Assembly: GCA_010356995.1 (NCBI GenBank)
Contig: ML996704.1
Span: 372,001 to 436,000 of the forward strand
From: Trichodelitschia bisporula
Taxonomy: Eukaryota
Length of the DNA stretch: 64,000 bases
Direction of reading: 5' to 3'
The notes beneath the pieces are model-generated. The model was given only the letters and a program-made list of their open reading frames with translations. It made no database searches and was not told the origin of the DNA. Of the stretch, positions 15,001 through 42,400 are shown one piece after another. A program made the translations under genes and the position numbers. Positions within the stretch are counted from its first letter, which is position 1, and each line of letters starts with the position of its first letter.

Positions 15001-17146
15001 GTCTCCGGATGGGCTTCAATTCGCCGCTGGTTCTGTGTGTCTGGTGGATCCCAGCAGTATGCAGTACAACCGGCCGAACAACCTCCTTCTCGGGGATATT
15101 CCGCGTAAAGCCATTCGAGAACTTCCCGAACATTCGCGGCCCCGTCCACGAACGGAAACTGGACCGAACTCGACGCGGGCTATGCAGGCAACACAAGATC
15201 CACGGCTATTTGAAACGGTGTCTAGCGTCAGTTTCAAGGCTGACGGATCTTGCTTCTACTCCACCGGGTACGACAATGCTCTTCGCGTCTACGATGTCAG
15301 CGAGGGCACCAAGAACTGTAAGATGACTTGGTCCTATGATCACGGCGCTAAAGTCGACTTGCTTGGGGTCAGTCGGGTCAACGGACTCATTGCTACGGGA
15401 TGCCATCAAACCGAGAACAGTATCCGCATCTTTCATCATGGCTCCGATGGTATCGAGCTTGATAGCCAATTCACGTCTAGGTTGGCGACCAAGTACCCCA
15501 ACAAGAAATCCCACCCGTCCTGCCTTCGATGGGGGCCTCATTCCCTGACAAGCAACTTACTCCTCGCGGGATATGCCACCCAAGTGAACGATGATGTCAA
15601 GGAGACATACGGCGAGATTTGCATGTGGGACGTCGAGACGGGTCGTCCCCTCACGATGAGTCCCAGCACGGGAAATATCTTCGATTGCGCCTGGAGCCCA
15701 TCTAATCGGCTGCTTGCCACTGCCAGTTCTGCTGTCTCCATCAAAGTTAACAGAGGAACACGCTCAGTTGTCAAGGTTTACTGGCCAACTGAGTCTAGGT
15801 GGTCCAGCCACGGCGTCGAGCTTGAGTGCACTGCGCTGGACATCAATGACGTTGTGTTCTGTCCACAGGAACAGCACTACGTCGCAGCTGGCGCAACCGA
15901 CGGCAAGGTTTACGTCTGGGACATCCGGAGGCCCGATTACCTGCTCCATAAGTTCTCACACGGAGAGCCCCTTGTAGAGCCTGATCCGAACTTCGCACGC
16001 GAGGTCCTCGACACCGGGGTATGCTTCTGCGCTTGGGGCGATTCCCGGTCGAGGCTCCACACAGCATCGTCAGACGGCATCCTCAAAGCCTGGGACATAT
16101 TCCGCTCCCCGCAAGACGCGCACATCACCAACATAGCGTCCTTCAACTCGGGCATCATGTCCGGCGCCTTCAGCTCCGACTTCTCGAGCCTTCTGATCGG
16201 CGAAGTCAACGGCTCCGTCTCCGTTCTCGAAGCTGGCGCCCCCTCCATCAAAGGCCGCGCCGTCCGCCCCTTCCGCTTCGAACCCGCCCCCACCGAACCC
16301 CCACCTTTCCTCCCAACCACACCCGCCGAGCGCCCAACCACGCCCGTCGACTCGCTCCCCACCACGGACGACGAATCCGCACCGCAAGGCTCCACGACGC
16401 CAAAGCACTCGCCCTCCGGCCGCGCTCTCGGCGAGCACCTCGTCGCGACCAAGCAAATCGCCATCCGCTCCTTCGGCCCGAAGCGCCAAGCCGTACGTGG
16501 CCGCAAGTACACCGGCCCGTGGGACCGCGGCGCCGACGCGGGCTCGCTGCGCGCCAAGGCCGTGGTTTTCCAGCATGGGATCCGCGCGCGCCGGGCGCGC
16601 ACGCCGTGCCATATCCCGCTGTGCAGGGCGTCGGTGCCGCACTTCACGGACGAGGAGGGTGATTCGGGCCGCTGGGCGGATCGCATTCCCGGTGCTTTGC
16701 GGGACGCGGTTGCGGCTGCGGCGCGGCATGAGGGGAAGGGGGAGATGGTGCCTGGGATGCTGAGCTGTGCGCATTGCTCTGCGCCGGCGAGGCCGCGCAC
16801 GGGGGATGAGGAGCAGGAGGTTTTTCCGCTGTGTGAGAGGTGTGGGTTTGCGTGTTTTCGGTGTGGGGAGAGGGTTAAGGTTGGCTTGGCGGTTGGGGGG
16901 GTGGAGTGTAAGGCTTGTGGCGTGGGGTGGCGGGCGGGGGTGCTGGGGTATGCGGTTGTGAGGGATCGGAGGGCGGAGGAAAGGGAGACGCGGATGGAGG
17001 TGGACAGGGACGAGGATGGGACGGGGGAGGGGGGGGGGTGGAGGATGAGCCGCTACAAGGTCGATTTGGTGTCTGAACTCGAGGACTGGATGCATTCGCG
17101 CTGGGGCTCCGCTGGGGCGAGGAACTTGGCTGGGAATACTCGTTAG
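12002..17146 (+). CDS. Large WD40-repeat protein, Rik1-associated factor 1 (Raf1)/DIM-9-like DCAF, with Myb-like segment and C-terminal Cys-rich finger
   Basis: Exon 1 12002-12015, intron 12016-12108 (GTATGT..GCTAAC..CAG), exon 2 12109-17146 (MASARIVIDLSEG...). WD repeats from FTGASGDVGTVAWSPDG...SMQYNRPNNLLLG; WDxR motif VYVWDIRR; long Ser/Pro-rich N-terminus; CAHC..CERC.FACFRC..CKAC at the C-terminus. WD40 call is firm; the Raf1/DIM-9 orthology is from recollection. Confidence 0.85.
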
Positions 17147-22721: not shown

Positions 22722-23482
22722 AGGCGGCTGGGTGGGGACGTTGCTGGGGTTGTTCAGCCTTGCTGTACCCGGCTTGCACAGCTTCAGCCATACATGTTTC
22801 TTGCAGGACGGTGACCCCATTATGATGCTTAACTTAATTCAGGCTAGTGGTTTTGCTACATGCACAGGTGATTAAGTGAACCCCTCCTCGATGACGTAAA
22901 CATAAGGTAGGAGTAACGTTGTCAGGAAGGCGCATATTTGGTATCATCGTGTATTTATTCTTGAGAGTCCCTGATGTGGTTATGGAAGGAGCATTCTTAT
23001 GTCATCAAGGGATATGATGTAATGCGAGTATCAAGGGAAGAAGCGTTGAAGGACACGGTGTATATATTCCTGAGAGTCTGACTCTCTTCCTCTCCTCGTC
23101 TTTCATCAACTCTTTCACAATTATCATATTGTATACACGTGCCGTGAGCTCTGTTCTGCATCAGTCCCCGAATCTCTTCCTCTCCTTGTCTTTTACTTCA
23201 ACCTTCAGATTTCACAGTCGCCTTTGCACGTGGTGAGCCTTGCTCCCGATGCTCGATTCGACATCTGTCATCACGAGCCACAGCAGGGCTGCCGGGCATC
23301 TCCTCCTGGACATGGGACTAAACATTAACATTTAGAGATACAGTAGAACTAGTACATAGACATCACGCATGACCCCCTCATACCCAGACAGACACCCAAA
23401 ATTCCAAAAAAAACCAAACCAAGGAAACCCAAACGACGGTCAGACATTACACCAAGGAAAACTATACCCAAAAGATCGCATT

Positions 23483-26400
23483 TTACCCATCCGCCAGCTC
23501 CACCACCCTCACGCCCCCAATCTCAAAAATCATACTCCTTCCCCAAACCGCACTCAAATTAACCTCCACCTCCGTTTCATCCCGCCCCGCCACAAACGTG
23601 CCCGTCGCGACATGTACTCTCCCCTCCTTCTCCTCGCTCCTCCACGCTGCAACCATATTCCCGTCCGCAAGACAGCTCACGCAACCCCCCTCGCCATTGA
23701 TGTCAAACCGCAGCCACACGCGCGCCTCGTACCGCATCCCGGGCTTCGTGGCGATGCGCTGCCGCAGCCACACCGTCTCCACCGCACGGTACAGCACCGT
23801 GGCCACGAGTTTGTGGCTCCGGCCGCGCAGCCCGGGGCTCACGAGATGCACCTCATTATCCCCACGGGACATATCCCACCCGTCCAGGGTCCCCGACGCA
23901 AAGTCCCCATTCTGCAGCAGGCAAGTAGGCAGTGTAGGCAGGGGCGGTATGGGCGGTGAATTCGGGGGGATGGGGTGGCTCGGGAGGTTTACCTCCGAGA
24001 TACTGATGCGGATGCCGGGGTTCTTGTCGTGTAATTTGCTGAAGGAGATGGCGCGCTTGACGAAGCTGCGTACGGGATGGGGGTTAGGATTTGAGGTGGT
24101 GGTGGGGTCGGTGGATTGGTGGGGGGTGGGTAACGGACGCAGATGCCGGGCTGATGAGATGCGGCGGAGCCAGTTGGGATGCCGGGTGGGTGTCGTAGGG
24201 AGGAGGGTGGGGGCGAGAGTTGGGGGAGTGGTGGGGGGAGTGGGGAGGGGAGCGCTGACGTTGGGTGGGGCAGGGTCAGTGTCGGTTGTATCGGGCTCGG
24301 GGAGGTTGATGTCGGGGACGGGTGGGCTTTGGACGGCCTCGGGAGGCGTGGTATTGTCGTCGACCGTCGGTTCGGGGACTTCGGCATCGTCAGGTGCGGA
24401 TGTTTCATGGCCCCCCTCGGTGTCCGGCTCTTGGGTTTCTCCTGGAGGCAAGTCTCGGTCGGTATTAATGCCTTCAGCCCCTTCGGCATCAATCGGCCCA
24501 GTTTGCTCTTCGGGAGCTCCCAGCTCCGGCTCCCCAGCCACCTCCTTCTCACCATCAACTTCTAGGGGCACCGGGCCGCGCACAAACGCCGGCGCCGCAC
24601 CCCACTTAGACGCAGTAAACACCGTCGTCCCATCCACCAGCACCGCCCTTACAAACGCATGCACACTCTCCACACACGGCAGCACATCAGGCTTAAACAC
24701 AGCCTCATGCGCCTTACCAATCGTGACCGTTTCCACAGCCGCAGGGTCCTCGGGGTCACTGCTAGGGCTAAGACGGACGCGCCAAGTGATATTCGCCCAA
24801 TCGCCATAGTTGTAGTTCTTCGCGTTGGGCAGGACGGCGGCCCAGTCGACCTTGACCTCACCGCCGGCGACGCTCGTAGCTGGTGGCCCAGAGAGGACAA
24901 TCGCATCCTCGATGAACTTGCGCGCGGTTGAGAGGGCCGCTTCCGCCGCCTTGTACTGCTCCTCGGCCTCCTTGCGTTTCCTTCCAAGCGACGGTATCGG
25001 TAGTGGAATCGGCAGACCCAGAAGCAGGCCCACGACGCCCTTCGCCGCGCCGACGGCGCTGAGAGCCAGGGATGCGGCTTCTAGCGCGGCGAGGCCAGCG
25101 GCGAAGGCACCGACGCTGAGAGGGAGGGACGGGGAGATAGGCACGCTAGTGACGACAGAGAGGGCTTTAAGTGCGGTGGAGCTGAGTAAGGAAGTTTCAG
25201 CCTCGGCGAGGGAGGAGGCGTGTGCGAGGAGGTTTTTGGGAGTGACTTTGCGGCAGATGAGGCGGGAGGTGAGTTGGTTGCTGTATTTGGAGACGGATTG
25301 GACGGCGATTATCGCGGCGAGGTCTTGTGGGTGTTGGAGGAGGGTTTTGCCGATTTCGGTGGCGGAGGATTTGATGGCGTTGCCGAGGGCGGTCCAGAGG
25401 GCGTCCTTTGTGAAGGGCGCGGGGACGGTGATGCTCAACTCGCCGAGCGCGATGGAGGCGACTTTCTTGCCTTTGACGGAGACGTCGAACGCCACCGCCG
25501 CGCGCGCCGTGACATTGACCTTCACCCCCTTCCCCCGGCCCGCCGTAAAGCTCAACTTGAAGTTAAACTTCGTCTTGACCTGCTCAAACACCAGCCCCGT
25601 CAGCTTACCACAGCTGCAGCTCCTATCGCCCTCCGACCCCTTCATAATCGCGTCCGCAAGATCGAGCAGGCCATCGCCATCCCGTGCGACTCCCCAATCT
25701 TTCAAGCCGAACCCATCACCGCTGAACGTGAACGGGATCTCCGGGTTCTTGACCCCAAACACGGAGCCCGTAAGCTTCGCCTTGCCGGCAAACTCGCCAC
25801 CCTCACTCGCGCCGCCCGGCGTACAGGTGAGCTGGACTTCGCCCGCGAACCCGAAGGCGCGAACCCCGGCACGCGCACCGAACACGGCTTTCCGGCCTGT
25901 AGTGTCGATGTTGAGCCGTGGGCATAGCAGCTGCGCGAAGCCCAGGTCGAGATCATCCTCATACGTGCCGGCAAGCACGATCCCGTCCCTGCTGTCAGGT
26001 AGGTCGAGCTGCACGGTGAAGGGGGCATCGAAGAGCGAGATGCGTGCGTGGACGTGGTACCCTGGCACATATTCGAAGTCCTCGAGAGACAGCGGTTTGG
26101 AGTCGGTGTAGTAGTACAGGCGCGCGGTCTCGAGGGTCAGGGAGGGGAAGCCGGACGGCCAGGTGGGCGATTTGGGGCCTGAGGCCAGGAGCGCGCTGAA
26201 GAGGTCTGTGATCGGCAGGGGGTGGTCGAAGGTAGCGGTTAGAAGTTTAGGTTGGCCTTCGAAGAAGGTCAGGGCGCCGAGGGGGCCGCTGGCGCTATCG
26301 ATGGAGCCGAGCTGCAGCCGGCCGGAGAGGATGTGGGTTTGTGTGATGGTTCCGTTGGCGGTGAGAATTGAGCCGCGGAAGGAAGGCGCGGTGAGCGAGA

Positions 26401-32795: not shown

Positions 32796-35700
32796 TTATA
32801 TTGCCCCGGACTTCAAGCTCGCAAACACACTCGCCATCGCCGGCGTCAGATGCCGCGCAACCGGCATGGACGCCGTACCCGGACACACGAAAATATATCT
32901 CACCATAATGAGCGCCTCATCCTGAATAACATGCACCCCACTCGAAACCGCCTTCTGCTCGCCGCCGACCTCACACCCAAGCAGCACACGACACGAAGCA
33001 GGAAAGTTCATCGCACCCCAACGCTTCTCCGTCGTCCCAATCGCCGTCTTCGCATATCCCCACGCCGTCGACGGCTCCTCGGCCAGATATATGCCCTTGC
33101 CGTGGTACGCGCCGTTCGCCTGCAGCGGCGTACCGCTCATCTCGCGCAGGCCCAGCGTCAGAATCGCAAATACCCGGTCCAGCGACGTGCCGTGGAAGAG
33201 CACGCGTGTCGGCGCTTTGCCGACTTTTTCTGCGAAGCGCTTTTCCATCTCCGGCGTCCCGTTTGCTATTAGGTATTGATGTGTCCCTGGCGGGATGCTG
33301 GGAATGCGCAGCGGCCCAGTGGCCGGGACGATGTAGATTGGGAAGGCAAGGGCAAGGCCGCGAAGCAGGTCCGCGTAGGTGGGACCGGAACTCTGGGCGA
33401 AGGCTTGCGAGGTGAATGTGGCGTTTTGCAGGTCTGTGATCGGCGGGAGTGCGGCGATGGCGGTTTTGACGTCGCTGGGGTTGTTCACAGTGAAAGTCTC
33501 TAGGAACTTGCGGCCGTTGGGCGCACATGCAGCGCTCTGTAGTATCACCACGAGGAGGTCCAGGACGGGCGGGTGGCGCGTGAGCTTCACAAGCCAGCTC
33601 TTGGGCGTATTGAGCATGGTCATCATCGCGGCGCATTTGAAGTCAGCGCAGAGGGTTGTGTGGCGGAGGGGATGCGGATGAGGTTCTAGGCATACGGTGC
33701 AGGTAGAGCCGAGGAGGGTGATCGCCTTGGTAAGGTGCTGGTAGATGATAGCCAGCGAGGTGGCGCCTCCGCGGAGGTGCTTATATAGGGACTGGCTGAG
33801 GTGAAAGATGACGGGAGACATGCCGTCCTTTTGACAGTAGCGCTTCTTCGGCGTGATGTTGTCGACGAACACGAACTGGTACTTGTGGTTCTTGAAATGA
33901 TCCTGCTGACCTTCCAGCTTCTTGTCGAAGTGAATGCAAAACCCAAAGGACACGGGGTACCTGGACACCGTGAGGCGGACGAGTACGTTCTCCGCCCCTT
34001 CCACTTCCAGCGACTGACGCTGAAGCAACGGTAGCTTCGAGAGCGGAATTTGCAGTTCCACCTCTGATATCCCAATGCGCTCCACCACGTCAACCATTTC
34101 CACCGGCAGTTCGCTCATGATATCGTCCAGCAGCGAGGTGTCTTCAATGCCGAGCTGCTTCAGCGCCTTCCCCACGCCTTCGGGGTCCACCGCCTTGAAT
34201 GCCATGCGCAGGCCCTCTAGATTCTGCGCTTCAGCCATCATATTTCCCAGTATGGACTGCATTTTCGCCTTGCGCGCGTCCAGAGCTGCCAGGTTGGCAT
34301 TTTCGGTCTCCTCCCGGCTAATACCCAATAACGCCCCCACAGCGGCAACGGAAAGCCTATCTGTTTGACTCAGTCGCTTGGAACGCAGGTACGCGCAATG
34401 CATAATGACGGCATAATCCCGACTCTCCATGTGAAAAAGGTCAAGAATACGCAAACAGTGGGGAGGTCCATGGTCGTGGCTCGACTTTCGAACAGCTTTG
34501 AGCGCCTCCGCTACTAATGCCGCATTGTCCCCCGAAATGGAGAGCTTGAAAAATATCCTGGCCATGACATCCCAGTGTACGGTTTTAAATCCCTTGGAAA
34601 GTGATTGAAGTATCTGCTGAAGTGACTTTTTGAAGTTGGCCATGCCGAGGGGCCCAGCAAGAAGGCGAAACACCGGCTCACTCTTCCCCATCACGGTGAA
34701 GAGTGCTTGAACCATATCCTTATTGGGAATGAGATTCATGGTCCAGGTGTGAATCTCCACGATAGGTAGGGTTGTAATGGGAGGGACATCGCCAGAAAGG
34801 AGGTCGGCAAATAGGATGCCCATGCGCTCAACCCAAAGAAACCATAGAACAAGCGAGCGCGACTTAAACACGGTTTCTATAAACGTGATTGAATCCATGG
34901 TATACATTCGCTGCAGCACCACACGCCAACTGTGCTTGATGAGTTCCGGGTACTCGAATTTCCGGGTGGGAGACGTAAGGAAAAAGGCCAGATGAAAGCA
35001 AGCCAAGGCCGGCTCGTTTTCAGCTTCCATGAGGATGCTACTAAGGGATTTGTAATATCCCTCGCCGGGATTGGGTTCCTTCAGCATCTGCCCAATGCAT
35101 TGCGCCACAAGCGTCAGTTCGAACTTGTCCGGTTGTTGGAGGAGGAGGGTTGCGACGTGTTTGATGTGGGCGTCGGGGTCCCTTTGGCGCCATAATTCAG
35201 TAATCATGGCGATGATGGAGAGATCATCCGGGAGGAGAGAAGTCGGATGGATGTAGAGATGCAGTACATATGCATCGAACTTCGACCGGAGATTATGTAT
35301 AGGCCCAGGAGGGAGACTCCGGATAGCGACACCAGTGTCAAAGCAGGCACGCGTATCTTCCAGCGAGGGCCATTGATCGAAAAGTCTCTGGAGCCCTTGA
35401 TCGAAAAGTCTATGGGGACTGCCCGACAGTTCGGAGAGCCAGGGCGATGCTTCGACTTGCCGACGGATGTCCTGCAGGCTTGTGAGCGTACTAAGATGCC
35501 CGTTTGTCCACTCCTGGCCCTTGGACCAGAGCTGTAGCACTGCAGCCTGCCCGTTATTGACGATTCCGACCAGTCCTGCGATAATTTGCGGTTGGAAAAT
35601 CTCGCGCAAGCGGAACCCTTTCCCGGATCCCGTTGCTGCGGCGAAGAAGACCATGTCGCCGAGATGGGGTAGGACATTTTTGTCTTGAGCGTCCAGAAGT

Positions 35701-36806
35701 CTCGTTACCACCCTCGTCAGCTCGGGATGCTTCATCTCGAGGCAGCATTCTGCAATATCCAGGGCACGTTCGCTCAGTGCAGCTCTCCACACCAGGAGGT
35801 AGCGAATAAGCGTCCCTTCGGAGTCGCTTCCCACAGCTGCCCGAAAAAGGACGGCTTTCATGCGTCTTATGATTTCTCGCAAATGTTGCACATCCGGGCT
35901 TGATATTTCCAACACAAAGTTGCCATAGGTGATGGTCGTCAGTGGACTTTGCTCGAAGGAGTCCATGATGCTCTGAAGCAAGGTCGGCTTTGTGGGGTCT
36001 TTGAAGCAAGGACCGTCCAGAGCAATGATATCGCGGAAAACTTCGCGCTCTCTGTTCTCGAGGGTGTCGTAAAGCTTGATGGAGTGAATATTCGGCTTCC
36101 ACGAGGCCCACGCACGCCAGCTTGGCCATTCGCTCTCCAGAATTTGTATGAGAGATATTGACGGTATTGGGCTGATTTTGGGTGTGAAGCCAATCGACAG
36201 GCAGCTGACAACATCGTGGATCACGTACAACCGGCCCGAGGTGGCGAGTTGCTCGACGTAGCTTTGGAACTCTCGACAAATGTGACGTGATAAAACTGCT
36301 GAGTGTTCGTACACCCGGGATGACATTGGTACCCCTCTTTTGAGGAGAACAAGCATGCGTTGGAAAGCGAATGGCTTGTCTGTACACATGGGAGGTAGCA
36401 TGTAGAGTAGATCCCGAGCGCGCGCAGCTTCATCGGCATCTACAATAGCGGGGTGATATTTGTGAACCGAGAGAAGAATCCGAAGATATGTCGGAAGCTC
36501 GCTGAAGTATTCCGGAACAGCTTTCAATTCCATGAGGAGCAACTGGATCGCCGTTTGGGAGAGGGCATGGCAGCATGCCGCGACAGCCACATCTTTTCTG
36601 TCGAATTTCCTGATGGCAGGGAGAAGGATGTCGTCAAGTTGCACCTTGCTTGTACTCTTCTTTTGTATGTATCCGTCGGTAGTTTGCTGGACTCTCTGCC
36701 ACGGAAATGCGGGGTCGGCGGGGTTGTGGCCATCTGCGATCTTTTCGATCTGTCGATGGAGCGGTTCAGCGCCTCGCAGGCAATCGAAGGAGAGGAAGAA
36801 TCTCAT
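32796..36806 (-). CDS. PARP-catalytic-domain protein (PARP6/8/16-like, probable mono-ADP-ribosyltransferase), 1,336 aa, intronless
   Basis: C-terminal VLFHGTS..AIL..GLR..NGAYHGKGIYLAEEPSTAWGYA..VLLGCEV..VHVIQDEALIMVRYIF; preceded by CTVC.EPH..TTLC...C and VLDLLV, resembling the PARP6/8 Cys-rich region; ~900-aa helical N-terminus of unknown family. Confidence 0.92.
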   Translation of the reverse strand: MRFFLSFDCLRGAEPLHRQIEKIADGHNPADPAFPWQRVQQTTDGYIQKKSTSKVQLDDILLPAIRKFDRKDVAVAACCHALSQTAIQLLLMELKAVPEYFSELPTYLRILLSVHKYHPAIVDADEAARARDLLYMLPPMCTDKPFAFQRMLVLLKRGVPMSSRVYEHSAVLSRHICREFQSYVEQLATSGRLYVIHDVVSCLSIGFTPKISPIPSISLIQILESEWPSWRAWASWKPNIHSIKLYDTLENREREVFRDIIALDGPCFKDPTKPTLLQSIMDSFEQSPLTTITYGNFVLEISSPDVQHLREIIRRMKAVLFRAAVGSDSEGTLIRYLLVWRAALSERALDIAECCLEMKHPELTRVVTRLLDAQDKNVLPHLGDMVFFAAATGSGKGFRLREIFQPQIIAGLVGIVNNGQAAVLQLWSKGQEWTNGHLSTLTSLQDIRRQVEASPWLSELSGSPHRLFDQGLQRLFDQWPSLEDTRACFDTGVAIRSLPPGPIHNLRSKFDAYVLHLYIHPTSLLPDDLSIIAMITELWRQRDPDAHIKHVATLLLQQPDKFELTLVAQCIGQMLKEPNPGEGYYKSLSSILMEAENEPALACFHLAFFLTSPTRKFEYPELIKHSWRVVLQRMYTMDSITFIETVFKSRSLVLWFLWVERMGILFADLLSGDVPPITTLPIVEIHTWTMNLIPNKDMVQALFTVMGKSEPVFRLLAGPLGMANFKKSLQQILQSLSKGFKTVHWDVMARIFFKLSISGDNAALVAEALKAVRKSSHDHGPPHCLRILDLFHMESRDYAVIMHCAYLRSKRLSQTDRLSVAAVGALLGISREETENANLAALDARKAKMQSILGNMMAEAQNLEGLRMAFKAVDPEGVGKALKQLGIEDTSLLDDIMSELPVEMVDVVERIGISEVELQIPLSKLPLLQRQSLEVEGAENVLVRLTVSRYPVSFGFCIHFDKKLEGQQDHFKNHKYQFVFVDNITPKKRYCQKDGMSPVIFHLSQSLYKHLRGGATSLAIIYQHLTKAITLLGSTCTVCLEPHPHPLRHTTLCADFKCAAMMTMLNTPKSWLVKLTRHPPVLDLLVVILQSAACAPNGRKFLETFTVNNPSDVKTAIAALPPITDLQNATFTSQAFAQSSGPTYADLLRGLALAFPIYIVPATGPLRIPSIPPGTHQYLIANGTPEMEKRFAEKVGKAPTRVLFHGTSLDRVFAILTLGLREMSGTPLQANGAYHGKGIYLAEEPSTAWGYAKTAIGTTEKRWGAMNFPASCRVLLGCEVGGEQKAVSSGVHVIQDEALIMVRYIFVCPGTASMPVARHLTPAMASVFASLKSGAI

Positions 36807-37890
36807 TGAGAATAGTGGCGAAGTTGTGGTCGGAGGAGGAGCGTTCTTTTTCGGAGGAAGTGACGTTGCGGGCCAGGGTCCATATGTCTTTCATACGAGG
36901 GTGAAGCTCGTACTCGCAGGCGGTTTCACGATTCCTCGAGGGGCTGAAGACCGTTGTACTTTAGATTTACAATAAGGTCCGAGGCTCCTCAGACGCCACC
37001 GCAATGAGGAGTATACGGGAAACGCGGCTGATGTGGGGGTACCGGAAGGCAGATAGCTGTGTTGGCGACATCCTCAGCCTCACGATCACGAAAGATATTG
37101 GAGATAGACAGGGTGAGGCGGAAAGAAAGCTTGAGGATGTTACATACCGTGTGGTCAATTGGGTACAGAATGAAGACAGAGACTTGCACTGCTGATGCAG
37201 CGGTTGTGGGGTGGACGGAATACTACGCGAGCGTCGTCCGGGTATACGTAGTCTGAACCCTGGCAGCGCGTGGTAGTTTTGGTCGGCGGCATCAATGACC
37301 AGTCGAGGAGAGCCCAGTCAGCGCATGACATTGAGGACGTCCGTCGAAAACGAGAGTCCGGGGGAGGCAGAGTTGTACTAGAGAAGCTTGAGGCGAATTG
37401 TTAAGTGGAAAGCGAAGGGAGGGGTAGCTCGCGAGCTTGACGGGACGAAGCCATAGGATTGGTGTATGTATGCAGAGCGTCACCGAAACCCATCTGGATA
37501 CGGTAGGTCCAGAGGACTCGGTGCGGACTCAATGCCATGAGACGCTGCAGCATTCGATGCACTGTTTCTGGAAAAGGAGCCTGACCGCTGGCGGGGCTGA
37601 ATGCTGAAAAGCCTTATGGAGCGTAAATACGCCTGCCAAGCCACCCGTGCTGCGACTGTGCATTAGCATCAGGCTGGCATGTCTCTTTTCTTATCATCTT
37701 TGCGACCAAAAACTGCGCAGCTATTTTCGCATCGAGGTCCTTTTGACAATTAGAATACGAAAGGTGGGACTATATTAGTTTCACTTTGCCTCTACTGGAA
37801 GGCGTAGAGCCCTCAAAATCATCGCCGGCCCTTCCAAGTGGACTCTTGACCTCCCCCACCTCGACACCACCACTCCCCGGCTAGCTCAGC

Positions 37891-39402
37891 CTAATGCTGT
37901 TTACGAAGGTGTGCAGCGGCCTGACGAATGAAATCTCCTGCAGCAAGGAAGGAAGGATTAGCACATGTTTCAGCCTGCAGGACGCCCGCCTCAACTGTCC
38001 ATTCGCCACGAGCGGAAGCGGGAGCGGGGTTGTGAGACTGATGAGAGAGTGTGTAGAGCAAGTGCAGGACGAACGTACCAGTCTTGTGGAAGCATGTCCG
38101 GTTTCCTTGTGCGTCTCGCACCGCTTCTCCAATCGTCGTGTCATAGGCCATCCCGGTGTGTGAGTCTCTCGCCGGCACCCGCAATCCGTCTAGGGCGGTC
38201 TGCTCGGCTTGCGGAAGGGTGGCAACATAGGCGAGAAACTCGTCTGTAGCCTTGCGACTATCCAACGCGTTGTCGCTTTGGTCCTTGAGCAAGACGGGCC
38301 ATAGCTTGTTCATCTCGTCAATCGTTTTGTCACGCACGCCCTGCTTCAGCCTGCTTTGTTCGATCTGCAGCGCTGCCAGCGCTTTTCCGAGCGGATGTTG
38401 GACGATGGCGCGAATGTCATTGGCCGCGAACATTTGTTTGCTCAGCGGATTGCGCATGACTCCCGAGTTGGCTGTAATGGCTTGTGCCAATTCCTCCATG
38501 TCCCATGCGTAGCCGTCCTCGGTGACATAGAAGTTGGTCCGCGGTATGTCCGAAATGGGGTCGCCGAGCATTGTCTCGTCGTTGACATAGGTACGGCCGA
38601 GCAGCTCGTGCTCGATGTGCATCATGGCAGTAGTGGCGTGGGGCTGCATGTCTTTCGGCAGCGCTGCCCTGAGAACTTTCACTCGCTTTGCAAGATTCTC
38701 GCCCAGCGCGTCGTTGTCCGGTGCGTCCGGCCGCGATCGCAGCCACTTGGACATGTCGCAAAGGTCTGCGTATACTGTTTCGACAGCTTTCTTCGGGTCG
38801 GCTTCCATGGCCCTCGCGACAGCTCGGGCGCTCCCGGGAGCTTGAATGCGCTCGGCAACCTTAGCTTGCTGATGCTGGGTGCGAAGCAGTGTAACAATCT
38901 TGCCCGCGGCCAGGGACTCAACATCCTCAAGGAAACTGTTGTCGAACCCTCCCGCACCCGTATTTTGCATTAGCTCATCGAGGAACAGAGCGTCGCTTTG
39001 TAGTGCCTTGGCCTTCGCACTGAACTGTTCATAGTCTGTGAGCCACTTCTCTCTTAGTCGAGCACGCTCCGCTGGGTTGTCTGGCAGTTTGGGGATGCTT
39101 GTGGGGGGCTTGTATGGTGGGAGCTCTGCCTTTGGCGATGTCTTCAGGGCTTTTCTGTTTACGGCGGGTTTTGCGGCTTGTTTGGCGGAGCAAAATGCTT
39201 TGTGCCACTCGAGGACCTGTGGGTCGAGCGAGACAAGCGTCAACAACTCCTGGGTCTGCTCGCGGACGGCGTCATCCCAACCGGCAGCGATAAACTGTTG
39301 TACGAGGAGCTTTCGCGCTTCGACTCCGGGAGGGTGTCGTTCGATTTCTTCGTAGAGCTCGCTGAGAAGTGACAGATCGAGTTCCTCACGTGTTGTGGCC
39401 AT
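37891..39402 (-). CDS. Hypothetical protein (~456 aa) with TPR-like N-terminus and a U-box/RING-like segment
   Basis: Start taken at MATTREELDL (39402); intron 38078-37938 (GTACGT..GCTAAT..CAG, 141 nt) joins CFHKTG/DFIRQAAAHLRK. Segment NDETMLGDPISDIP..FYVTEDGYAWDMEELAQAI..MRNPLSKQMF follows the U-box-type pattern. Confidence 0.85.
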   Translation of the reverse strand: MATTREELDLSLLSELYEEIERHPPGVEARKLLVQQFIAAGWDDAVREQTQELLTLVSLDPQVLEWHKAFCSAKQAAKPAVNRKALKTSPKAELPPYKPPTSIPKLPDNPAERARLREKWLTDYEQFSAKAKALQSDALFLDELMQNTGAGGFDNSFLEDVESLAAGKIVTLLRTQHQQAKVAERIQAPGSARAVARAMEADPKKAVETVYADLCDMSKWLRSRPDAPDNDALGENLAKRVKVLRAALPKDMQPHATTAMMHIEHELLGRTYVNDETMLGDPISDIPRTNFYVTEDGYAWDMEELAQAITANSGVMRNPLSKQMFAANDIRAIVQHPLGKALAALQIEQSRLKQGVRDKTIDEMNKLWPVLLKDQSDNALDSRKATDEFLAYVATLPQAEQTALDGLRVPARDSHTGMAYDTTIGEAVRDAQGNRTCFHKTGTFVLHLLYTLSHQSHNPAPASARGEWTVEAGVLQAETCANPSFLAAGDFIRQAAAHLRKQH

Positions 39403-42400
39403 GGCTAATATGTGAAAGCGAGAGATGCGGATAGACAGGTATGGATTTGGGCGATTTGAAGCCGGATAAAAGTGTGCAGCCGAAATCTGTTCAGTGTACA
39501 TGAAAGAGAGCACACAAAGGTCCGTATGGCAGTGATGTTTTTATGGGGCAGCTATTTCGGCAAAGTTGCAGACCCGGGGAGAGGGCCGCGAGGGCGTCTC
39601 CCACAGGCACGTGTAGCTTCTAACAGTTGAACGGTATGCGGGTGCTGGTTGCTTTGGTGGCCTGTTGCTGGTTGCTGGTTGCTGGTTCTGGTTGCTGCCG
39701 TCTGCTAGTCGCCAGTGCCACATCCCGCAGTGTGCACAGCCTCTGAAGCCTAAGGCGGCGCAGTCAAGTTCAGGCGATGTGGAAAACCGCACTATCTCTG
39801 GCGCCTTGAGCCCTGTCCATCTCAACCTTTCCATCAACTGGTTAGCTAACGGTAGTAGACACACAGGTTTGCCAGTCCCACCTCACACAGCCTGATGCAT
39901 TTCGTCCAGTCCTCCATCTCGCCTGACACTCGTTTCTTATCTTATGAGTCTTAGCAACCCCCACAGGGCTTTTCGTATCGCCTTCCTTCATCGCGGACCC
40001 GATTCTTGAATCATAAACGAGCTGGAGGAAAGCGACACAACAACGACTATATCACCGATGGGAAGAGGTGACGTCTCTCAAAGCGCGACCTGGGAGATTG
40101 AATCGGCTCAACGCTAAAACGCGCTCGGCTAGTTGGAATGGCTTGATCTCCCACTTATGACCTCACCCATTGGCTCTCATAATTCCTCGGTTCTCATTCG
40201 TCGCTGCTGGCTTGCGATGGATGCCATGAAGTCCATGGAACACAATTGCTTGCTTCACTCATCTACAGTCCTACGGCTCTGCTCCTCTGTCTCTATGGTG
40301 CTGTAGCATTGGCCGCGTTGCAATTGCACACCGGCTCAGAAACCCATCAGAGGCTAAGTCTAAATTATGATCTAGTTTAAAGGCTTTCAACTTCTTCCTT
40401 TCGCTGACATGGTTACCTCAGATCTTACCTTTGACGTCTCCATGCCGCTCGCTTTCACGCTCGCTCTCAGCTTCTCACGGATATCTTACAACTATTGAAT
40501 TACAAGTTTCTGAAAGGCGCCAAGTAGCACACAATCCTTGGACGAGCTGGCATATCTTCCGGCGAAATGATGATGCAGCACTACATATTCCTTCTAGAAC
40601 GCCAATTCACGGCCAAGTGCGCTATTCAGAGAATGATAAGACTGAGCCATGGCAAACGGATGCCACGGGATTGACACTCTCGGACAAGCTGTCACTTTGC
40701 TCGGATCGCGACCCCGAAAGCAATAGGGCAACTGGCCAGACCAGGCGCCAACCGTACTAGCCAGCATCACGCCCAGGGACCAATTAACTCGCAGGCCTGC
40801 AGCAAGTGTCGACTGTTCTGGGCACCATCGCCTGGCCTGGCTAGCCGTAGCAGCGATATCAACGTCAACCACTCACAATATCCACCAACCTGGGCCGTTT
40901 CACCTCCGGATCTTGTCCGTCATTTCATCCTACTAATGAGCAGGCCATATATCCACCTCACTGTCGCGCCTGTGTGCCCTTCCAAGCCAGCACAGGACAA
41001 CAACGAAATATCCAAGTCCTCACCAGCGCTAAACCGAACCACCCAAGGCCTCGGCCCTTCTTTACGGTTCTACGCCCTGGCCTGCCAAACGCTTGATAAT
41101 CGCGCCCGGCCCGAAACTTGGCCCGAGGATTGCCTGCGCCGATCCCGTTGTCATATCGACTGCATGGCGCGCCCGAATCGGCAGGGAGAAGTCCGGCTCA
41201 GCCTTTTTGGCGCCCATTTCGGACGTCTGGGCGCCGATTCCTCCCTATCCGGAGTCTGGGCTCTCTGGCCACTCCATATCCGGCTTCTGGGCTTTGCGTC
41301 TGGGCTGGAGTTATGGTAGGGCTGGCGAGGCCGCGAGGCGCTCTGGTACGAGACTCGGTAATATCTGGGACTGGGCGCCGACACTGCATCTTACTTCCGC
41401 ACAGTACGGACACTTGGCTTCACGAGAGAGCAAAAAATGCCGCATTCAGCGGCTAAGACGGACGTCTTGGACGTGATGAGGATGCCCTCGACACGCATGC
41501 TCGCGTGCCACGCCGGTGCTTGACGGGAAGCATGTCCGGTACGTAGCGGTAACCCGCACCATCCGCCTCGCTCGTCCACCCTAGCACCCGGCACCCACCT
41601 GGCTAGTCCTCGATGTCTCCCTCCCGAAGCACGCATGCCGCACGCCCCCACGCCGCTGTCCAACCCCGGAGCTTGGCGCCTGCCCTACTTCTCCCCGCAT
41701 ATCATGCACGGTACCGGAAATGGCAATGCCAAGAGAATGGTACGGACGCTGGTTGGTACTGCTGGTCGGTACTTGCCGCTGGAGCCACCGGATGCGGCTC
41801 TTGGGATGGGGTATGCAGGCGTGCATGACCTAGGCTATGGGGATATGGGGGCGGTGTGGTGGACCGAGTAGCCGATCGGACCCGATGGATTTATGACTGG
41901 CGTGCGGGCTTGGAGATCGGTAGGTGTGGGGTTGGGTTTGATTTGCGGGGTCTGCGTTGTGGGGGTTTGGGGGTTGGGAGTGCCGGGCCGAAGCCGAGGC
42001 TGAGATTGGGGTTATCGGGATTGGCTTGGATTGTCAGATGGTTGATCTGAATTCTCGGCATTCACGGTTATTTTGGGAGAGAAGGTTCTGGATTCGGCTG
42101 ATGAGGGCGTGACAATTTGCTGCTTGCGGCGGTTGTATGATAGGAATGGCTCTTTCGTGTCATCGGGCACGTCGGGTTAGGTATCAGTGCGCATATTCAT
42201 ATCTGGTCGCGTGCACTTGCTCACTTCTGTCACGTTCTTGATGTGTAATCTTCGGACTGGATGTTGATACATCCGTATACAGTGTATTCTCCTAGTGGAT
42301 TATGGATGCCAAATCGCTGCTGCAGGGACTGTCACTGGGCACATTCGCCGTGTTCCGCAACGCAAGATACTCGCTCTGTAGTCAGACACAGCGAATTTTC

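What the first reader, a model, noticed from the sequence alone, without database searches (positions are those of the whole stretch)
23483..39402. Co-oriented trio: giant beta-repeat protein + PARP6/8-like ADP-ribosyltransferase + TPR/U-box-like protein, a candidate undescribed fungal defence/conflict module
Seen: three adjacent minus-strand genes ~1.1-1.3 kb apart, all intron-poor (0-1 intron over 13.5 kb of coding sequence), none recognisable as housekeeping, sitting between otherwise ordinary genes. Established: mono-ART PARPs and ubiquitin E3 domains are repeatedly coupled in eukaryotic innate immunity (e.g. PARP9-DTX3L) and in bacterial effector repertoires. Inference: the three may act as one pathway, with a sensor/delivery scaffold, an ADP-ribose writer and a ubiquitin ligase.
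Basis: partly seen in the sequence, partly recalled or inferred. Interest (0 to 1): 0.8.

Follow-up and report, generated by a model that had tools for sequence, protein, structure and literature searches.

The report
Conserved fungal PARP6-like gene pair
Two of the three genes, a PARP6/8-type ADP-ribosyltransferase and a TPR plus U-box-like protein, stay next to each other in distantly related fungi and probably work together, while the giant third gene is an unrelated, lineage-specific neighbour.

Summary
The three minus-strand genes are real and transcribed (Trichodelitschia bisporula, Dothideomycetes). They are not one unit.

**g1** (2685 codons, one 42-nt intron) has no relative found, no Pfam domain and no internal repeat. 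It has its own transcript contig. It is absent beside every g2 relative examined.

**g2** (1336 aa) and **g3** (456 aa) form a conserved pair:
- In 4 of 4 metagenome sequence types with enough upstream DNA, a g3 homologue or its decayed remnant lies directly upstream of the g2 homologue. No other neighbour is shared.
- Two lichen fungi (Lecanoromycetes) carry the two genes under consecutive locus tags.
- 12 of 56 g2-family contigs have exactly the length of a g3-family contig, against about 0.1 expected by chance.

g2 is a PARP6/8-type enzyme. It has invariant H and Y, I/V at the position I take to be the catalytic Glu, and the CX2CX13CX4C finger. It lacks the UBCc domain of the described fungal PARP-Ubc.

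g3 has an N-terminal TPR-like hairpin array. Its most conserved part is a zinc-less domain with weak but consistent RING/U-box-like fold matches.

Best reading: the two genes form one ADP-ribosylation module with a link to ubiquitin. The pairing is shown; the biochemistry is inferred. A defence role has no support.

The parts
23483..31540 (-). g1: 2685-codon ORF plus stop. Lineage-specific giant protein, not part of the conserved unit.
   Evidence: ORF. The only database match is the organism's own model P0132. No Pfam family, no internal repeats and one hydrophobic segment at about residues 2158-2176. No hit in 11 related loci.
29176..29217 (-). 42-nt in-frame intron of g1 (GTAAGT ... CTGAC ... 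TAG)
   Evidence: The joint is present in the contigs of both runs. Sequence checked.
23290..32257 (-). Extent of the g1 transcript contig (8926 nt in run X2)
   Evidence: table 8, record 6. It is separated from the g2 contig by 32258-32629, where only a 206-nt low-depth contig (32446-32651) lies.
32796..36806 (-). g2: 1336-aa PARP6/8-type ADP-ribosyltransferase, with no intron in the coding sequence
   Evidence: P0004 is the 1336-aa model. Family census. The transcript contig is unspliced over the coding sequence.
32799..34319 (-). C-terminal 507-aa module of g2: conserved C-H-H-C set, CX2CX13CX4C finger, helical stretch, ART domain and conserved C-terminal tail
   Evidence: Alignment A6 and column counts. 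Atlas nearest named clusters are chordate PARP6 at 0.95.
33633..33701 (-). CX2CX13CX4C zinc-finger motif, the PARP6/8 hallmark
   Evidence: The four Cys are kept in 104-106 of 106 family rows. The motif definition CX2CX9-19CX4C is from passages of PMC4245714.
33027..33251 (-). Core of the PARP catalytic domain matched by Pfam (P0004 residues 1186-1260). It holds the invariant H (fragment residue 376) and Y (411).
   Evidence: H and Y are each kept in 106 of 106 rows.
37057..37147 (-). 91-nt spliced intron in the spacer between the g3 stop and the g2 start
   Evidence: The joint is present in both runs. GTATGT..CAG ends checked.
37891..39402 (-). g3: 456-aa protein. Exon 1 is 39402-38079, the intron is 38078-37938, and exon 2 is 37937-37891 including the stop.
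   Evidence: ORF. Intron predicted from homologues, seen as an RNA joint and checked. 475 relatives.
39160..39390 (-). TPR-like helical hairpins (g3 residues 5-81)
   Evidence: Model pLDDT 88. VIA matches to TPR arrays at Z 8-9, for example 8a3t_J Z 9.0, rmsd 3.1, 74 aligned. TPR_14 in 34 of 91 and TPR_19 in 16 of 91 relatives.
38335..38583 (-). Zinc-less RING/U-box-like domain (g3 residues about 274-356), the most conserved part of g3
   Evidence: 17 of 28 invariant alignment columns lie in residues 262-360. The only fold matches to this part are E2-binding RING/U-box domains at Z 5.2-5.8. The top Foldseek hit is LubX U-box 1 at E 0.14.
39827..39881 (-). 55-nt intron in the roughly 1.1-kb leader upstream of the g3 start codon
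   Evidence: Joint. GT..AG register checked.
32630..40500 (-). Stretch covered by one spliced transcript contig per run that bridges g3 and g2
   Evidence: table 8, records 4 (X1, 8982 nt) and 8 (X2, 7595 nt). A contig across two genes does not prove a single mRNA.

Best explanation
The locus holds a conserved two-gene unit plus an unrelated neighbour.

**g2** is a large mono-ADP-ribosyltransferase of the PARP6/8 type. It has about 830 family-specific N-terminal residues, then a cysteine/histidine-rich region with the CX2CX13CX4C finger, a helical stretch and a C-terminal ART domain. The H and Y are invariant, and I or V stands at the position I take to be that of the poly-ADP-ribosylating glutamate.

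**g3**, directly upstream, is a 456-aa protein. It has a short TPR-like array, long helices, a zinc-less RING/U-box-like domain and a helical bundle.

The two genes have been inherited side by side through the radiation of filamentous ascomycetes, usually head-to-tail and once head-to-head. They are probably co-expressed.

Most likely mechanism (inferred): g3 is the partner subunit of g2. It would link mono-ADP-ribosylation by g2 to the ubiquitin machinery, either by recruiting an E2 or by docking on the E2-like region expected in PARP6/8-type enzymes. That would make the pair the two-gene counterpart of the fungal PARP-UBCc fusion and of the vertebrate PARP9-DTX3L pair.

**g1** is a lineage-specific, expressed giant gene that lies next to the pair by chance.

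Shown: gene structures, transcription, domain content of g2, and conserved adjacency of g2 and g3. Inferred: physical binding, enzyme activity and the ubiquitin link.
For: **Adjacency**
- A metagenome scan with the g2 family gave 11 loci of 7 sequence types.
- Four types have at least 1.5 kb upstream of g2. All four carry g3 directly upstream: L008 and L010/L011 in tandem, L007 divergent, and L006/L009 as a decayed remnant.
- No other ORF of 100 aa or more is shared between the window and the loci, or among loci of different types.
- Xylographa soralifera carries MMC17_009312 (g2) and MMC17_009313 (g3) on one 69,414-bp contig. Ptychographa xylographoides carries MMC19_005150 and MMC19_005149. 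Tothia fuscella has both genes on a contig of 103,811 bp.
- 12 of 46 g2-family contigs have exactly the length of one of the 120 listed g3-family contigs. About 0.1 is expected by chance.
- The 12 known-linked g3 genes are scattered over the g3 tree: 12 changes against a shuffled mean of 11.7. Linkage is therefore family-wide and not confined to a sub-clade.
- g2 and g3 distances co-vary over 17 linked pairs (Mantel r 0.86, 0 of 5000 permutations reach it).

**Expression**
- One spliced contig per run bridges g3 and g2 and has an intron in the spacer.

**g2**
- Pfam PARP domain.
- H376 and Y411 kept in 106 of 106 rows. Position 462 is I in 61 rows and V in 27, and E is not among its six commonest residues.
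- CX2CX13CX4C kept in 104-106 of 106 rows. This matches the PARP6/8 motif in PMC4245714.
- Atlas nearest named clusters are chordate PARP6 at 0.95 with 202-210 of 256 features shared. The fungal PARP plus UQ_con cluster scores 0.82.

**g3**
- Models at pLDDT 88 and 85.
- TPR-like N-terminus.
- RING/U-box-like matches are the only ones to the conserved core.
Against: - The U-box reading is weak. Z is only 5.2-5.8, Foldseek E is 0.14 or more, 0 of 91 relatives hit a U-box profile, and a PDB profile search found nothing.
- In L006/L009 g2 is intact while the adjacent g3 carries an in-frame stop and a frame change. g2 can therefore persist without this copy of g3.
- 44 of 56 g2-family contigs showed no matching g3 contig. 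Only 120 of 475 g3 hits were listed, so these contigs are untested, not negative.
- The RWD-like and helical-extension parts of g2 were not folded.
- The third catalytic position was assigned from a recalled PARP1 motif, not from a tool.
- The RNA runs come from one sample and are labelled RNA only by a guess. Their nature is inferred from the spliced joints.
Confidence: 0.6

Rival explanations
1. All three genes form one pathway: g1 as sensor or delivery scaffold, g2 as ADP-ribose writer and g3 as ubiquitin ligase, acting in defence.
For: The three genes are adjacent, co-oriented, intron-poor and all transcribed in the same sample.
Against: g1 has no relative in the searches that were possible. 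It is absent from the 10 loci with 1.1-10 kb downstream of a g2 relative. It has a separate transcript contig. No repeat or known domain was found, and no defence-type domain occurs anywhere in the trio.
Confidence: 0.04
2. The g3-g2 adjacency is kept for regulatory or structural reasons only. For example, the g2 promoter and spliced leader may lie within or overlap the g3 transcription unit. In that case the proteins need not act together.
For: A transcript contig bridges both genes and the spacer carries a spliced intron. Tandem orientation occurs in the window, L008, L010/L011 and the L006/L009 remnant.
Against: L007 has the pair head-to-head. Adjacency therefore survives a change of orientation that would break any shared or overlapping transcript. 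Spacer lengths also differ between taxa.
Confidence: 0.2
3. g3 is not an E3-like factor. It is a TPR-type adaptor, chaperone or inhibitor that controls a potentially harmful NAD-consuming enzyme. For example, it might bind the strongly conserved C-terminal tail of g2.
For: The TPR-like N-terminus is the best-supported fold assignment in g3. g2 ends in a tail that is conserved across the family: fragment residue 503 is R in 100 rows and K in 6 of 106, and residue 502 is L in 94 of 106.
Against: The most conserved part of g3 is not the TPR region but the RING/U-box-like core, with 17 of 28 invariant columns in residues 262-360. g2 stays intact where the neighbouring g3 has decayed. That speaks against an obligatory antidote.
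Confidence: 0.14
4. The g2-g3 adjacency is chance or merely residual block synteny.
For: None beyond the general possibility.
Against: The adjacency recurs in Dothideomycetes and Lecanoromycetes and in several unnamed taxa, while all other neighbours differ. The contig-length coincidences number 12 against about 0.1 expected.
Confidence: 0.02

Closest known systems
Animal PARP6/PARP8 (clade 6 mono-ADP-ribosyltransferases)
   Same: The ART domain lies at the C-terminus, with H and Y kept and I or V at the position I take to be that of the catalytic Glu. The CX2CX9-19CX4C cysteine motif sits upstream of it. The nearest named clusters by language-model features are chordate PARP6.
   Different: g2 has an additional family-specific N-terminal region of about 830 residues with no Pfam match. 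The RWD and helical-extension parts described for PARP6/8 (PMC10450202, passages read) were not tested here. By sequence against solved structures, only the H-Y core matches PARP1, 2 and 3.
Fungal PARP-Ubc / fPARP2 (clade 6A: RWD, 4C* finger, helical extension, ART, C-terminal UBCc E2 domain)
   Same: It is a fungal clade-6-type enzyme of about 1100-1300 aa with a link to ubiquitin. It shares the same type of zinc finger and lacks the catalytic Glu (bioRxiv 10.64898/2026.07.25.740670, PMC13720257 and PMC2964712, passages read).
   Different: g2 and its relatives end with the ART domain. 0 of 36 family members scanned carry UQ_con/UBCc. The Atlas similarity to the PARP plus UQ_con cluster is lower (0.82) than to animal PARP6 (0.95). 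The ubiquitin-type element, if there is one, is encoded by the separate neighbouring gene g3.
Vertebrate PARP9-DTX3L gene pair
   Same: A PARP-family gene and an E3-type gene are kept as direct neighbours and act as a complex. PARP9 and DTX3L lie head-to-head with a shared bidirectional promoter (PMC11251048, passage read). L007 shows the fungal pair head-to-head.
   Different: There is no homology of the partners. g2 has no macrodomain and is of clade 6, not clade 3. g3 has no RING with zinc ligands and no Deltex C-terminal domain (no Pfam hits). Orientation is mostly tandem. No immune context is known.
U-box E3 ligases (CHIP, E4B, Prp19, LubX)
   Same: The fold is a small beta-hairpin, helix, loop and helix without zinc ligands. 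CHIP also combines TPR repeats with a U-box (recalled). U-box chains make up 7 of the 50 Foldseek rows shown.
   Different: No sequence-profile match (0 of 91). All fold scores are below significance. g3 has about 190 residues of long helices between the TPR-like part and the core, and a helical bundle after it.

Membership tests
PARP superfamily (Pfam PF00644) | Match to the PARP catalytic domain profile above the curated cut-off | tested here: met
   g2 scores 38.7 bits (cut-off 26.7), E 1e-9. 35 of 36 family members scanned match at E up to 0.001.
PARP superfamily (Pfam PF00644) | NAD-binding His and Tyr of the H-Y-E triad | tested here: met
   H376 and Y411 of the 507-aa fragment are kept in 106 of 106 rows. 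They align with the HGS/HGT and GIY motifs of PARP1 and PARP3.
Clade 6 PARP6/8 type | Cysteine-rich motif CX2CX9-19CX4C before the ART domain (PMC4245714) | tested here: met
   g2 has CX2CX13CX4C. The four Cys are kept in 104, 106, 104 and 104 of 106 rows. The motif definition was read.
Clade 6 PARP6/8 type | Catalytic Glu replaced (H-Y-I in PARP6/8) | tested here: inconclusive
   The column I take as the third position is I in 61 rows and V in 27, with no E among its six commonest residues, of 106 rows. The column was chosen by likeness to a recalled PARP1 motif, not by a structural alignment.
Clade 6 PARP6/8 type | Split RWD domain and helical extension next to the ART domain (PMC10450202) | not tested
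Fungal PARP-Ubc / fPARP2 (clade 6A) | C-terminal UBCc (UQ_con) E2 domain after the ART domain | tested here: not met
   0 of 36 g2-family proteins have a UQ_con hit at E up to 0.001. g2 ends about 75 residues after the Pfam PARP match.
U-box / RING E3 domain | Match to a U-box or RING sequence profile | tested here: not met
   0 of 91 g3-family members match a U-box or RING family at E up to 5. A PDB profile search gave no such chain at E up to 10.
U-box / RING E3 domain | RING/U-box fold of the core domain | tested here: inconclusive
   VIA matches: 8jwj_C Z 5.8, rmsd 3.1, 77 aligned; 1wim Z 5.3, 84 aligned; 7v8f_B Z 5.2; 8eb0_A Z 5.7, 76 aligned. These are the only rows that cover model residues 1-100. 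In Foldseek, 4wz0 gives E 0.14. All are below the level that excludes chance.
U-box / RING E3 domain | Zinc ligands (RING) or their absence (U-box) | tested here: met
   The core has no Cys or His pairs in the sequence. If it is of this fold, it is of the zinc-less U-box kind.
TPR repeat proteins | TPR profile match and helical-hairpin fold | tested here: inconclusive
   The window's own g3 has no TPR hit at E up to 0.1. Among 91 relatives, TPR_14 matches in 34 (best E 0.0023) and TPR_19 in 16 (best E 3e-5). VIA gives Z 8-9 over residues 5-81, a level that is common for helical repeats.
PARP9-DTX3L-type module | Macrodomain PARP plus a Deltex RING-DTC ligase | tested here: not met
   No macrodomain, RING or Deltex family hit in g2 or g3. 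The likeness is in gene arrangement only.
Repeat ('beta-repeat') giant proteins, for g1 | Detectable internal sequence repeats or a repeat-family profile | tested here: not met
   Self-BLASTP shows no off-diagonal match at E up to 1. Pfam finds nothing at E up to 0.1 on the whole protein or up to 10 on five pieces, apart from two chance-level rows. The fold was not predicted.
Fungal NLR/HET-type defence loci | NACHT, NB-ARC, HET or similar domains in or beside the genes | tested here: not met
   None appears in the Pfam scans of the three genes and 19 flanking ORFs.

The most novel reading that the evidence does not exclude
g2 and g3 form a previously unrecognised two-subunit writer found in filamentous ascomycetes. 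It would pair a PARP6/8-type mono-ADP-ribosyltransferase with a zinc-less RING/U-box-like partner that brings in, or mimics contact with, an E2. ADP-ribosylation and ubiquitylation would then be coupled in trans. This would be the split counterpart of the fungal PARP-UBCc fusion and a fungal parallel to PARP9-DTX3L. It would also make g2 a third fungal PARP type, closer to animal PARP6/8 than the fungal enzyme currently taken as their homologue.
Probability: 0.22. Interest if true: 0.75.

Novelty: new variant of a known kind. Interest (0 to 1): 0.55.

Why it matters
Clade 6 PARPs (PARP6, PARP8, PARP16 and fungal PARP-Ubc) are the least understood PARPs in any organism. Their recurrent association with ubiquitin-type domains is noted in the literature but not explained.

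The conserved gene pair names a specific candidate partner for a PARP6/8-type enzyme. That turns the association into a question that can be tested by binding and activity assays.

The passages I read in two 2026 surveys of fungal ADP-ribosylation list only PARP1-type and PARP-Ubc-type enzymes, plus Fusarium-specific extras. A family of at least several hundred 50%-identity clusters with a UBCc-less PARP6-like build would extend that repertoire. None of the 25 organism-named g3 hits or the 9 organism-named g2 proteins seen comes from a model-fungus genus such as Aspergillus, Neurospora or Fusarium, which may be why the family was overlooked.

Gene order in these fungi is reported to decay quickly (recalled, not checked). 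A pair that survives while every other neighbour changes is therefore a strong pointer to joint function.

Tried and rejected
- **Complex prediction.** g2 C-terminal 507 aa with g3 445 aa scored 0.22 and 0.23 against a mark of 0.34. The verdict was 'no answer', controls were not run and my alignments were not used. This is no evidence either way.
- **Own genome and earlier findings.** Neither was available. Paralogues of g2, or a PARP-Ubc gene in this organism, could not be looked for.
- **Word-index search for g2**. It found only 7 relatives and first suggested a rare family. The exhaustive HMMER search corrected this: 420 representatives at E up to 1e-30.
- **g1 relatives.** The search in the near-length range found only the organism's own model; the shorter and longer ranges were not searched. 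The Atlas gave unnamed, mostly bacterial clusters at 0.90-0.91 with 158-167 shared features and low recognition (1138), and DUF6603 at 0.78. These are leads only. The prokaryote genome scan had 25 pattern matches, none confirmed. Pfam on five pieces gave only CEBP1_N at E 0.16 and CBM_4_9 at E 0.28.
- **Foldseek of full-length g3 against PDB.** No hit at E up to 0.001.
- **Profile searches of solved structures.** The g3 profile gave nothing better than E 0.1. The g2 profile matched only the H-Y core of PARP1, 2, 3, 4, 12, 15 and tankyrase. PARP16 was not among the 60 rows shown.
- **Fusion check.** No g3-like region occurs in 164 g2-family proteins, and no g2-like region in 120 g3-family proteins.
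- **RNA runs.** No listed holder is on record as RNA. The two runs laid are one sample and are kept as contigs, so they give no levels, no strand and no proof of a single g3-g2 molecule.
- **Third cluster look-up**. 0 of 10 further g2 contigs matched a listed g3 contig.
- **Literature searches** for a described g2-g3 pair or a UBCc-less fungal PARP6/8 family returned only the general PARP surveys cited. I read passages, not whole texts, and no supplements. The supplementary tables of the 2026 preprint, which I could not see, might list such proteins.

Full report
**What is there**

The region holds three long minus-strand ORFs: 23483-31546, 32796-36890 and 37891-39540 (translations). The organism is Trichodelitschia bisporula (Dothideomycetes, Phaeotrichales). 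This follows from the only database match of the first ORF, which is the deposited protein EJ06DRAFT_164124 on a 766,460-bp contig. The start codons are at 31540 (g1), 36806 (g2, the 1336-aa model P0004) and 39402 (g3). The spacers are 1.25 and 1.08 kb.

The flanking genes are ordinary. They include a Ras-type GTPase, a 1692-aa WD40 protein, a LanC-like protein, a P-type ATPase, an amino-acid permease, a fungal rhodopsin-domain protein and eIF2D. Three neighbours share a strand by chance one time in four, so co-orientation alone carries no weight.

**Transcripts**

Two public runs from one sample hold 95% of the sampled words of the g2-g3 stretch. Their nature was only guessed as RNA. Their contigs, however, carry five joints in the stretch laid. 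Four of them have CT..AC ends on the plus strand and occur in both runs; these are GT..AG introns of minus-strand genes, so the contigs are assemblies of spliced RNA. The fifth joint (23002-23078, CA..GT ends, run X1 only) lies outside the three genes.

g1 is covered by one contig from 23290 to 32257. It has a single 42-nt in-frame intron (29176-29217) with a GTAAGT donor and a CTGAC branch-like site.

g2 and g3 are covered together by one contig per run, from about 32630 to beyond 40500. Three introns are removed from it:
- the 141-nt intron of g3 (37938-38078), which I had predicted from homologues;
- a 91-nt intron in the spacer between the g3 stop and the g2 start (37057-37147);
- a 55-nt intron in a leader of about 1.1 kb upstream of g3.

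Spliced g3 encodes 456 aa. Between the g1 contig and the g2-g3 contig, only a 206-nt low-depth contig (32446-32651) lies in 32258-32629. A contig across two genes does not prove a single mRNA, and contig depth cannot rank expression.

**g1**

The protein has 2685 codons (2671 after splicing). No Pfam family matches the whole protein at E up to 0.1. Five overlapping pieces scanned at E up to 10 gave only two chance-level rows, CEBP1_N at E 0.16 and CBM_4_9 at E 0.28 near the C-terminus. Self-comparison finds no internal repeat, so 'beta-repeat' has no support in the sequence.

There is one strongly hydrophobic segment near residue 2158, followed by a proline-rich stretch.

Searches for relatives gave the following:
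- The word-index search over proteins of 1477-4703 aa returned only the organism's own model.
- The ESM Atlas returned unnamed, mostly bacterial clusters at 0.90-0.91, with low recognition.
- A pattern scan of prokaryote genomes confirmed nothing.

Proteins of other length classes were not searched, so I say 'no relative found' and not 'orphan proven'.

**g2**

Pfam places a PARP catalytic domain at residues 1186-1260 of 1336. The first search suggested a rare family with 7 relatives at 26-31% identity. That was a limit of the word index. An exhaustive HMMER search used a profile of the C-terminal 928 positions (alignment A3). It found 2976 representatives of 50%-identity clusters at E up to 0.001 and 420 at E up to 1e-30. 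The best 150 all scored E 3.6e-111 or lower, and most are about 1300 aa and cover the whole profile.

In an alignment of 106 members:
- The ART histidine and tyrosine are invariant (106 of 106 each).
- The column I take as the third catalytic position is I (61 rows) or V (27 rows), and E is not among its six commonest residues. I chose this column by likeness to a recalled PARP1 motif, so the point is inference.
- Four cysteines spaced CX2CX13CX4C are kept in 104-106 rows.

Perina et al. give CX2CX9-19CX4C before the PARP domain as the mark of PARP6/8 homologues in all eukaryotic supergroups (PMC4245714, passages). By language-model features, the nearest named clusters to the C-terminal 507 aa are chordate PARP6 (0.95, with 202-210 of 256 features shared). 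The fungal cluster that carries PARP plus UQ_con scores 0.82. This is a lead and not a test.

The described fungal clade-6 enzyme, called PARP-Ubc or fPARP2, ends in a UBCc E2 domain. I read this in passages of PMC2964712, bioRxiv 10.64898/2026.07.25.740670 and PMC13720257. None of 36 g2-family proteins has that domain, and they end shortly after the ART domain.

So 'PARP6/8-like' is supported, and g2 is not a member of the PARP-Ubc type. The RWD and helical-extension parts that PMC10450202 describes for human PARP6/8 were not tested, because I spent both fold jobs on g3. The N-terminal region of about 830 residues has no known domain.

**g3**

The search returned 475 relatives at E up to 0.001, and the 120 listed are 44-62% identical. 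25 of the 120 carry an organism name from NCBI. They come from Dothideomycetes, Leotiomycetes and Lecanoromycetes. The class assignments are mostly from my own knowledge; four species were looked up.

The AlphaFold model of residues 1-445 has mean pLDDT 88. Its parts are:
- Residues 5-81 match TPR arrays (for example 8a3t_J: Z 9.0, rmsd 3.1, 74 aligned). Weak TPR profiles hit 34 (TPR_14) and 16 (TPR_19) of 91 relatives.
- Residues 77-95 have pLDDT under 50 and so are likely disordered.
- Long helices follow.
- The most conserved part is residues 262-360, which hold 17 of the 28 invariant columns.

A separate model of residues 260-445 has pLDDT 85. In the unbiased structural search, the only rows that cover its first 100 residues are E2-binding RING-type domains: PHF7 with UBE2D2 (Z 5.8), a RING finger (1wim, Z 5.3) and HOIP RING1 with UBE2L3 (Z 5.2). 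A second look added RNF216 (Z 5.7). Foldseek's top row is U-box 1 of LubX (E 0.14). Six further U-box rows (LubX, CHIP, E4B) and one RCR-type E3 row stand among the 50 shown.

None of these scores is significant on its own. No U-box profile matches any of 91 relatives. The part has no zinc ligands. I therefore call it zinc-less RING/U-box-like, with weak but consistent support. The rest of the C-terminal model is a four-helix bundle plus a second small hairpin-helix element.

**Are the genes linked elsewhere?**

A scan of JGI metagenome contigs with a five-member g2 alignment gave 11 loci. By nucleotide identity these are 7 sequence types. Four types have at least 1.5 kb upstream of g2:
- In L008 and L010/L011, a full g3 homologue (48-50% identical) lies directly upstream on the same strand.
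- In L007, it lies directly upstream on the opposite strand.
- In L006/L009, the same place holds three ORF fragments that match consecutive parts of the g3 profile. They are interrupted by an in-frame stop and a frame change. This is a decayed copy next to an intact g2.

The other three types have less than 400 nt upstream and cannot be judged. Ten of the 11 loci have 1.1-10 kb downstream of g2, and none holds a g1-like sequence. No other window ORF of 100 aa or more has a match in the loci. Among loci of different types, only g2 and g3 are shared.

In annotated genomes:
- Xylographa soralifera has MMC17_009312 (g2 family) and MMC17_009313 (g3 family) on one 69,414-bp contig.
- Ptychographa xylographoides has MMC19_005150 and MMC19_005149. 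The contig lengths on record differ (286,837 and 242,548).
- Tothia fuscella has both genes on a contig of 103,811 bp.

As a wider proxy, I compared the contig lengths on record for g2-family proteins with those of the 120 listed g3 hits. 12 of 46 are exactly equal, where about 0.1 is expected from near-misses. Several of these contigs are only 6.7-9.8 kb long, so the two genes must be direct neighbours there. Ten further g2 contigs gave no match, which makes 12 of 56. The misses are not informative, because only 120 of the 475 g3 hits were listed.

On a tree of 113 g3 proteins, the 12 known-linked ones are scattered (12 changes against a shuffled mean of 11.7). Five of the tree's six main groups hold at least one of them; the group of 13 rows that includes the named Pleosporales holds none. 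Linkage is therefore a property of the family and not of one sub-clade. Over 17 linked pairs, the g2 and g3 distance matrices correlate (Mantel r 0.86, 0 of 5000 permutations reach it). g2 evolves faster, with a median p-distance of 0.65 against 0.49 for g3. No fused g2-g3 protein was seen among 164 and 120 family members.

**Interpretation**

The conserved unit is the pair g3-g2, and g1 is not part of it. A pair that stays adjacent across classes while every other neighbour changes, and that keeps adjacency through an inversion (L007), is best explained by selection for joint function or joint regulation.

The closest parallels both link a PARP to the ubiquitin system. One is the fungal PARP-UBCc fusion. 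The other is the vertebrate PARP9-DTX3L pair, whose genes lie head-to-head with a shared promoter (PMC11251048, passage). I therefore propose that g3 is the partner subunit of the g2 mono-ADP-ribosyltransferase and connects it to an E2 or to the E2-like part expected in PARP6/8-type enzymes.

This step is inferred. The one complex prediction gave no verdict and counts for nothing either way.

Three rivals remain:
- Adjacency is kept only for regulatory reasons. The bridging transcript contig fits this, but the head-to-head case argues against it.
- g3 is a TPR-type adaptor or inhibitor of g2. The conserved g2 tail and the TPR part fit this. The decayed g3 beside an intact g2, and the conservation peak in the RING-like core, argue against an obligatory antidote.
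- The full trio acts as one module. This now has very little support.

Nothing seen points specifically to defence.

**Novelty**

In the passages I read, two 2026 surveys and the 2010 and 2014 family surveys list PARP1-type and PARP-Ubc-type enzymes for fungi, plus Fusarium extras and one unplaced Nectria protein. Three searches for a UBCc-less fungal PARP6/8 family or for this gene pair returned nothing further. I did not read whole texts or supplements, so a listing in a supplementary table cannot be excluded.

I rate the finding as a new variant of a known kind, namely a PARP coupled to a ubiquitin-type partner, with moderate interest. The original three-gene defence module is not supported. 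What replaces it is a concrete partnership for a poorly understood PARP clade that can be tested by binding and activity assays.

Noticed in passing
window 29176-29217 and 23483-25110: g1 has a very short (42-nt) in-frame intron with canonical signals. The deposited model (P0132, 2189 aa) follows the ORF only to about residue 2144 and then leaves the frame. The RNA contigs run on unspliced to 23290. The last roughly 540 codons (hydrophobic segment, Pro-rich stretch, weak CBM_4_9-like end) are therefore probably coding.
   Followed up: partly
window 36807-37890 and 39403-40511: One transcript contig per run bridges g3 and g2. It carries a spliced 91-nt intron in the spacer and a 55-nt intron in a leader of about 1.1 kb before g3. 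This could mean overlapping UTRs or a read-through/bicistronic RNA. Contigs cannot decide between these.
   Followed up: partly
L006:815-1238 and L009:630-1053: A decayed g3 remnant, with an in-frame stop and then a frame change, sits directly upstream of an intact g2 homologue. The pattern is the same in two samples.
   Followed up: partly
L006:1734-2765, L010:7911-8972, L011:10001-11062; protein P0005: g2 relatives of 1555-1734 aa repeat the N-terminal module. Window g2 ORF (P0002) residues about 59-264 match two or three times.
   Followed up: no
window 33834-33938 (g2 fragment residues 128-162): A second conserved C-H-H-C set (C128, H130, H145, C162; kept in 94-98 of 106 family rows) lies upstream of the CX2CX13CX4C finger. 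It may be a second metal site.
   Followed up: no
window 32799-32843 (end of g2): The last 15 residues of g2 form a tail that is conserved across the family. Fragment residue 503 is R or K in all 106 rows, and residue 502 is L in 94. This is a candidate docking peptide.
   Followed up: no
window 12068-17146 (+): A 1692-aa ORF has WD40 repeats only in residues about 1050-1385. The first 1000 or so residues have no Pfam match at E up to 0.001.
   Followed up: no
(named hits): The 25 organism-named g3 hits and the 9 organism-named g2-family proteins come from Dothideomycetes, Lecanoromycetes and (g3 only) Leotiomycetes. None comes from Eurotiomycetes or Sordariomycetes in what was listed. This may be a patchy distribution. 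Only the best 120 of 475 g3 hits and 30 looked-up g2 clusters were seen.
   Followed up: no
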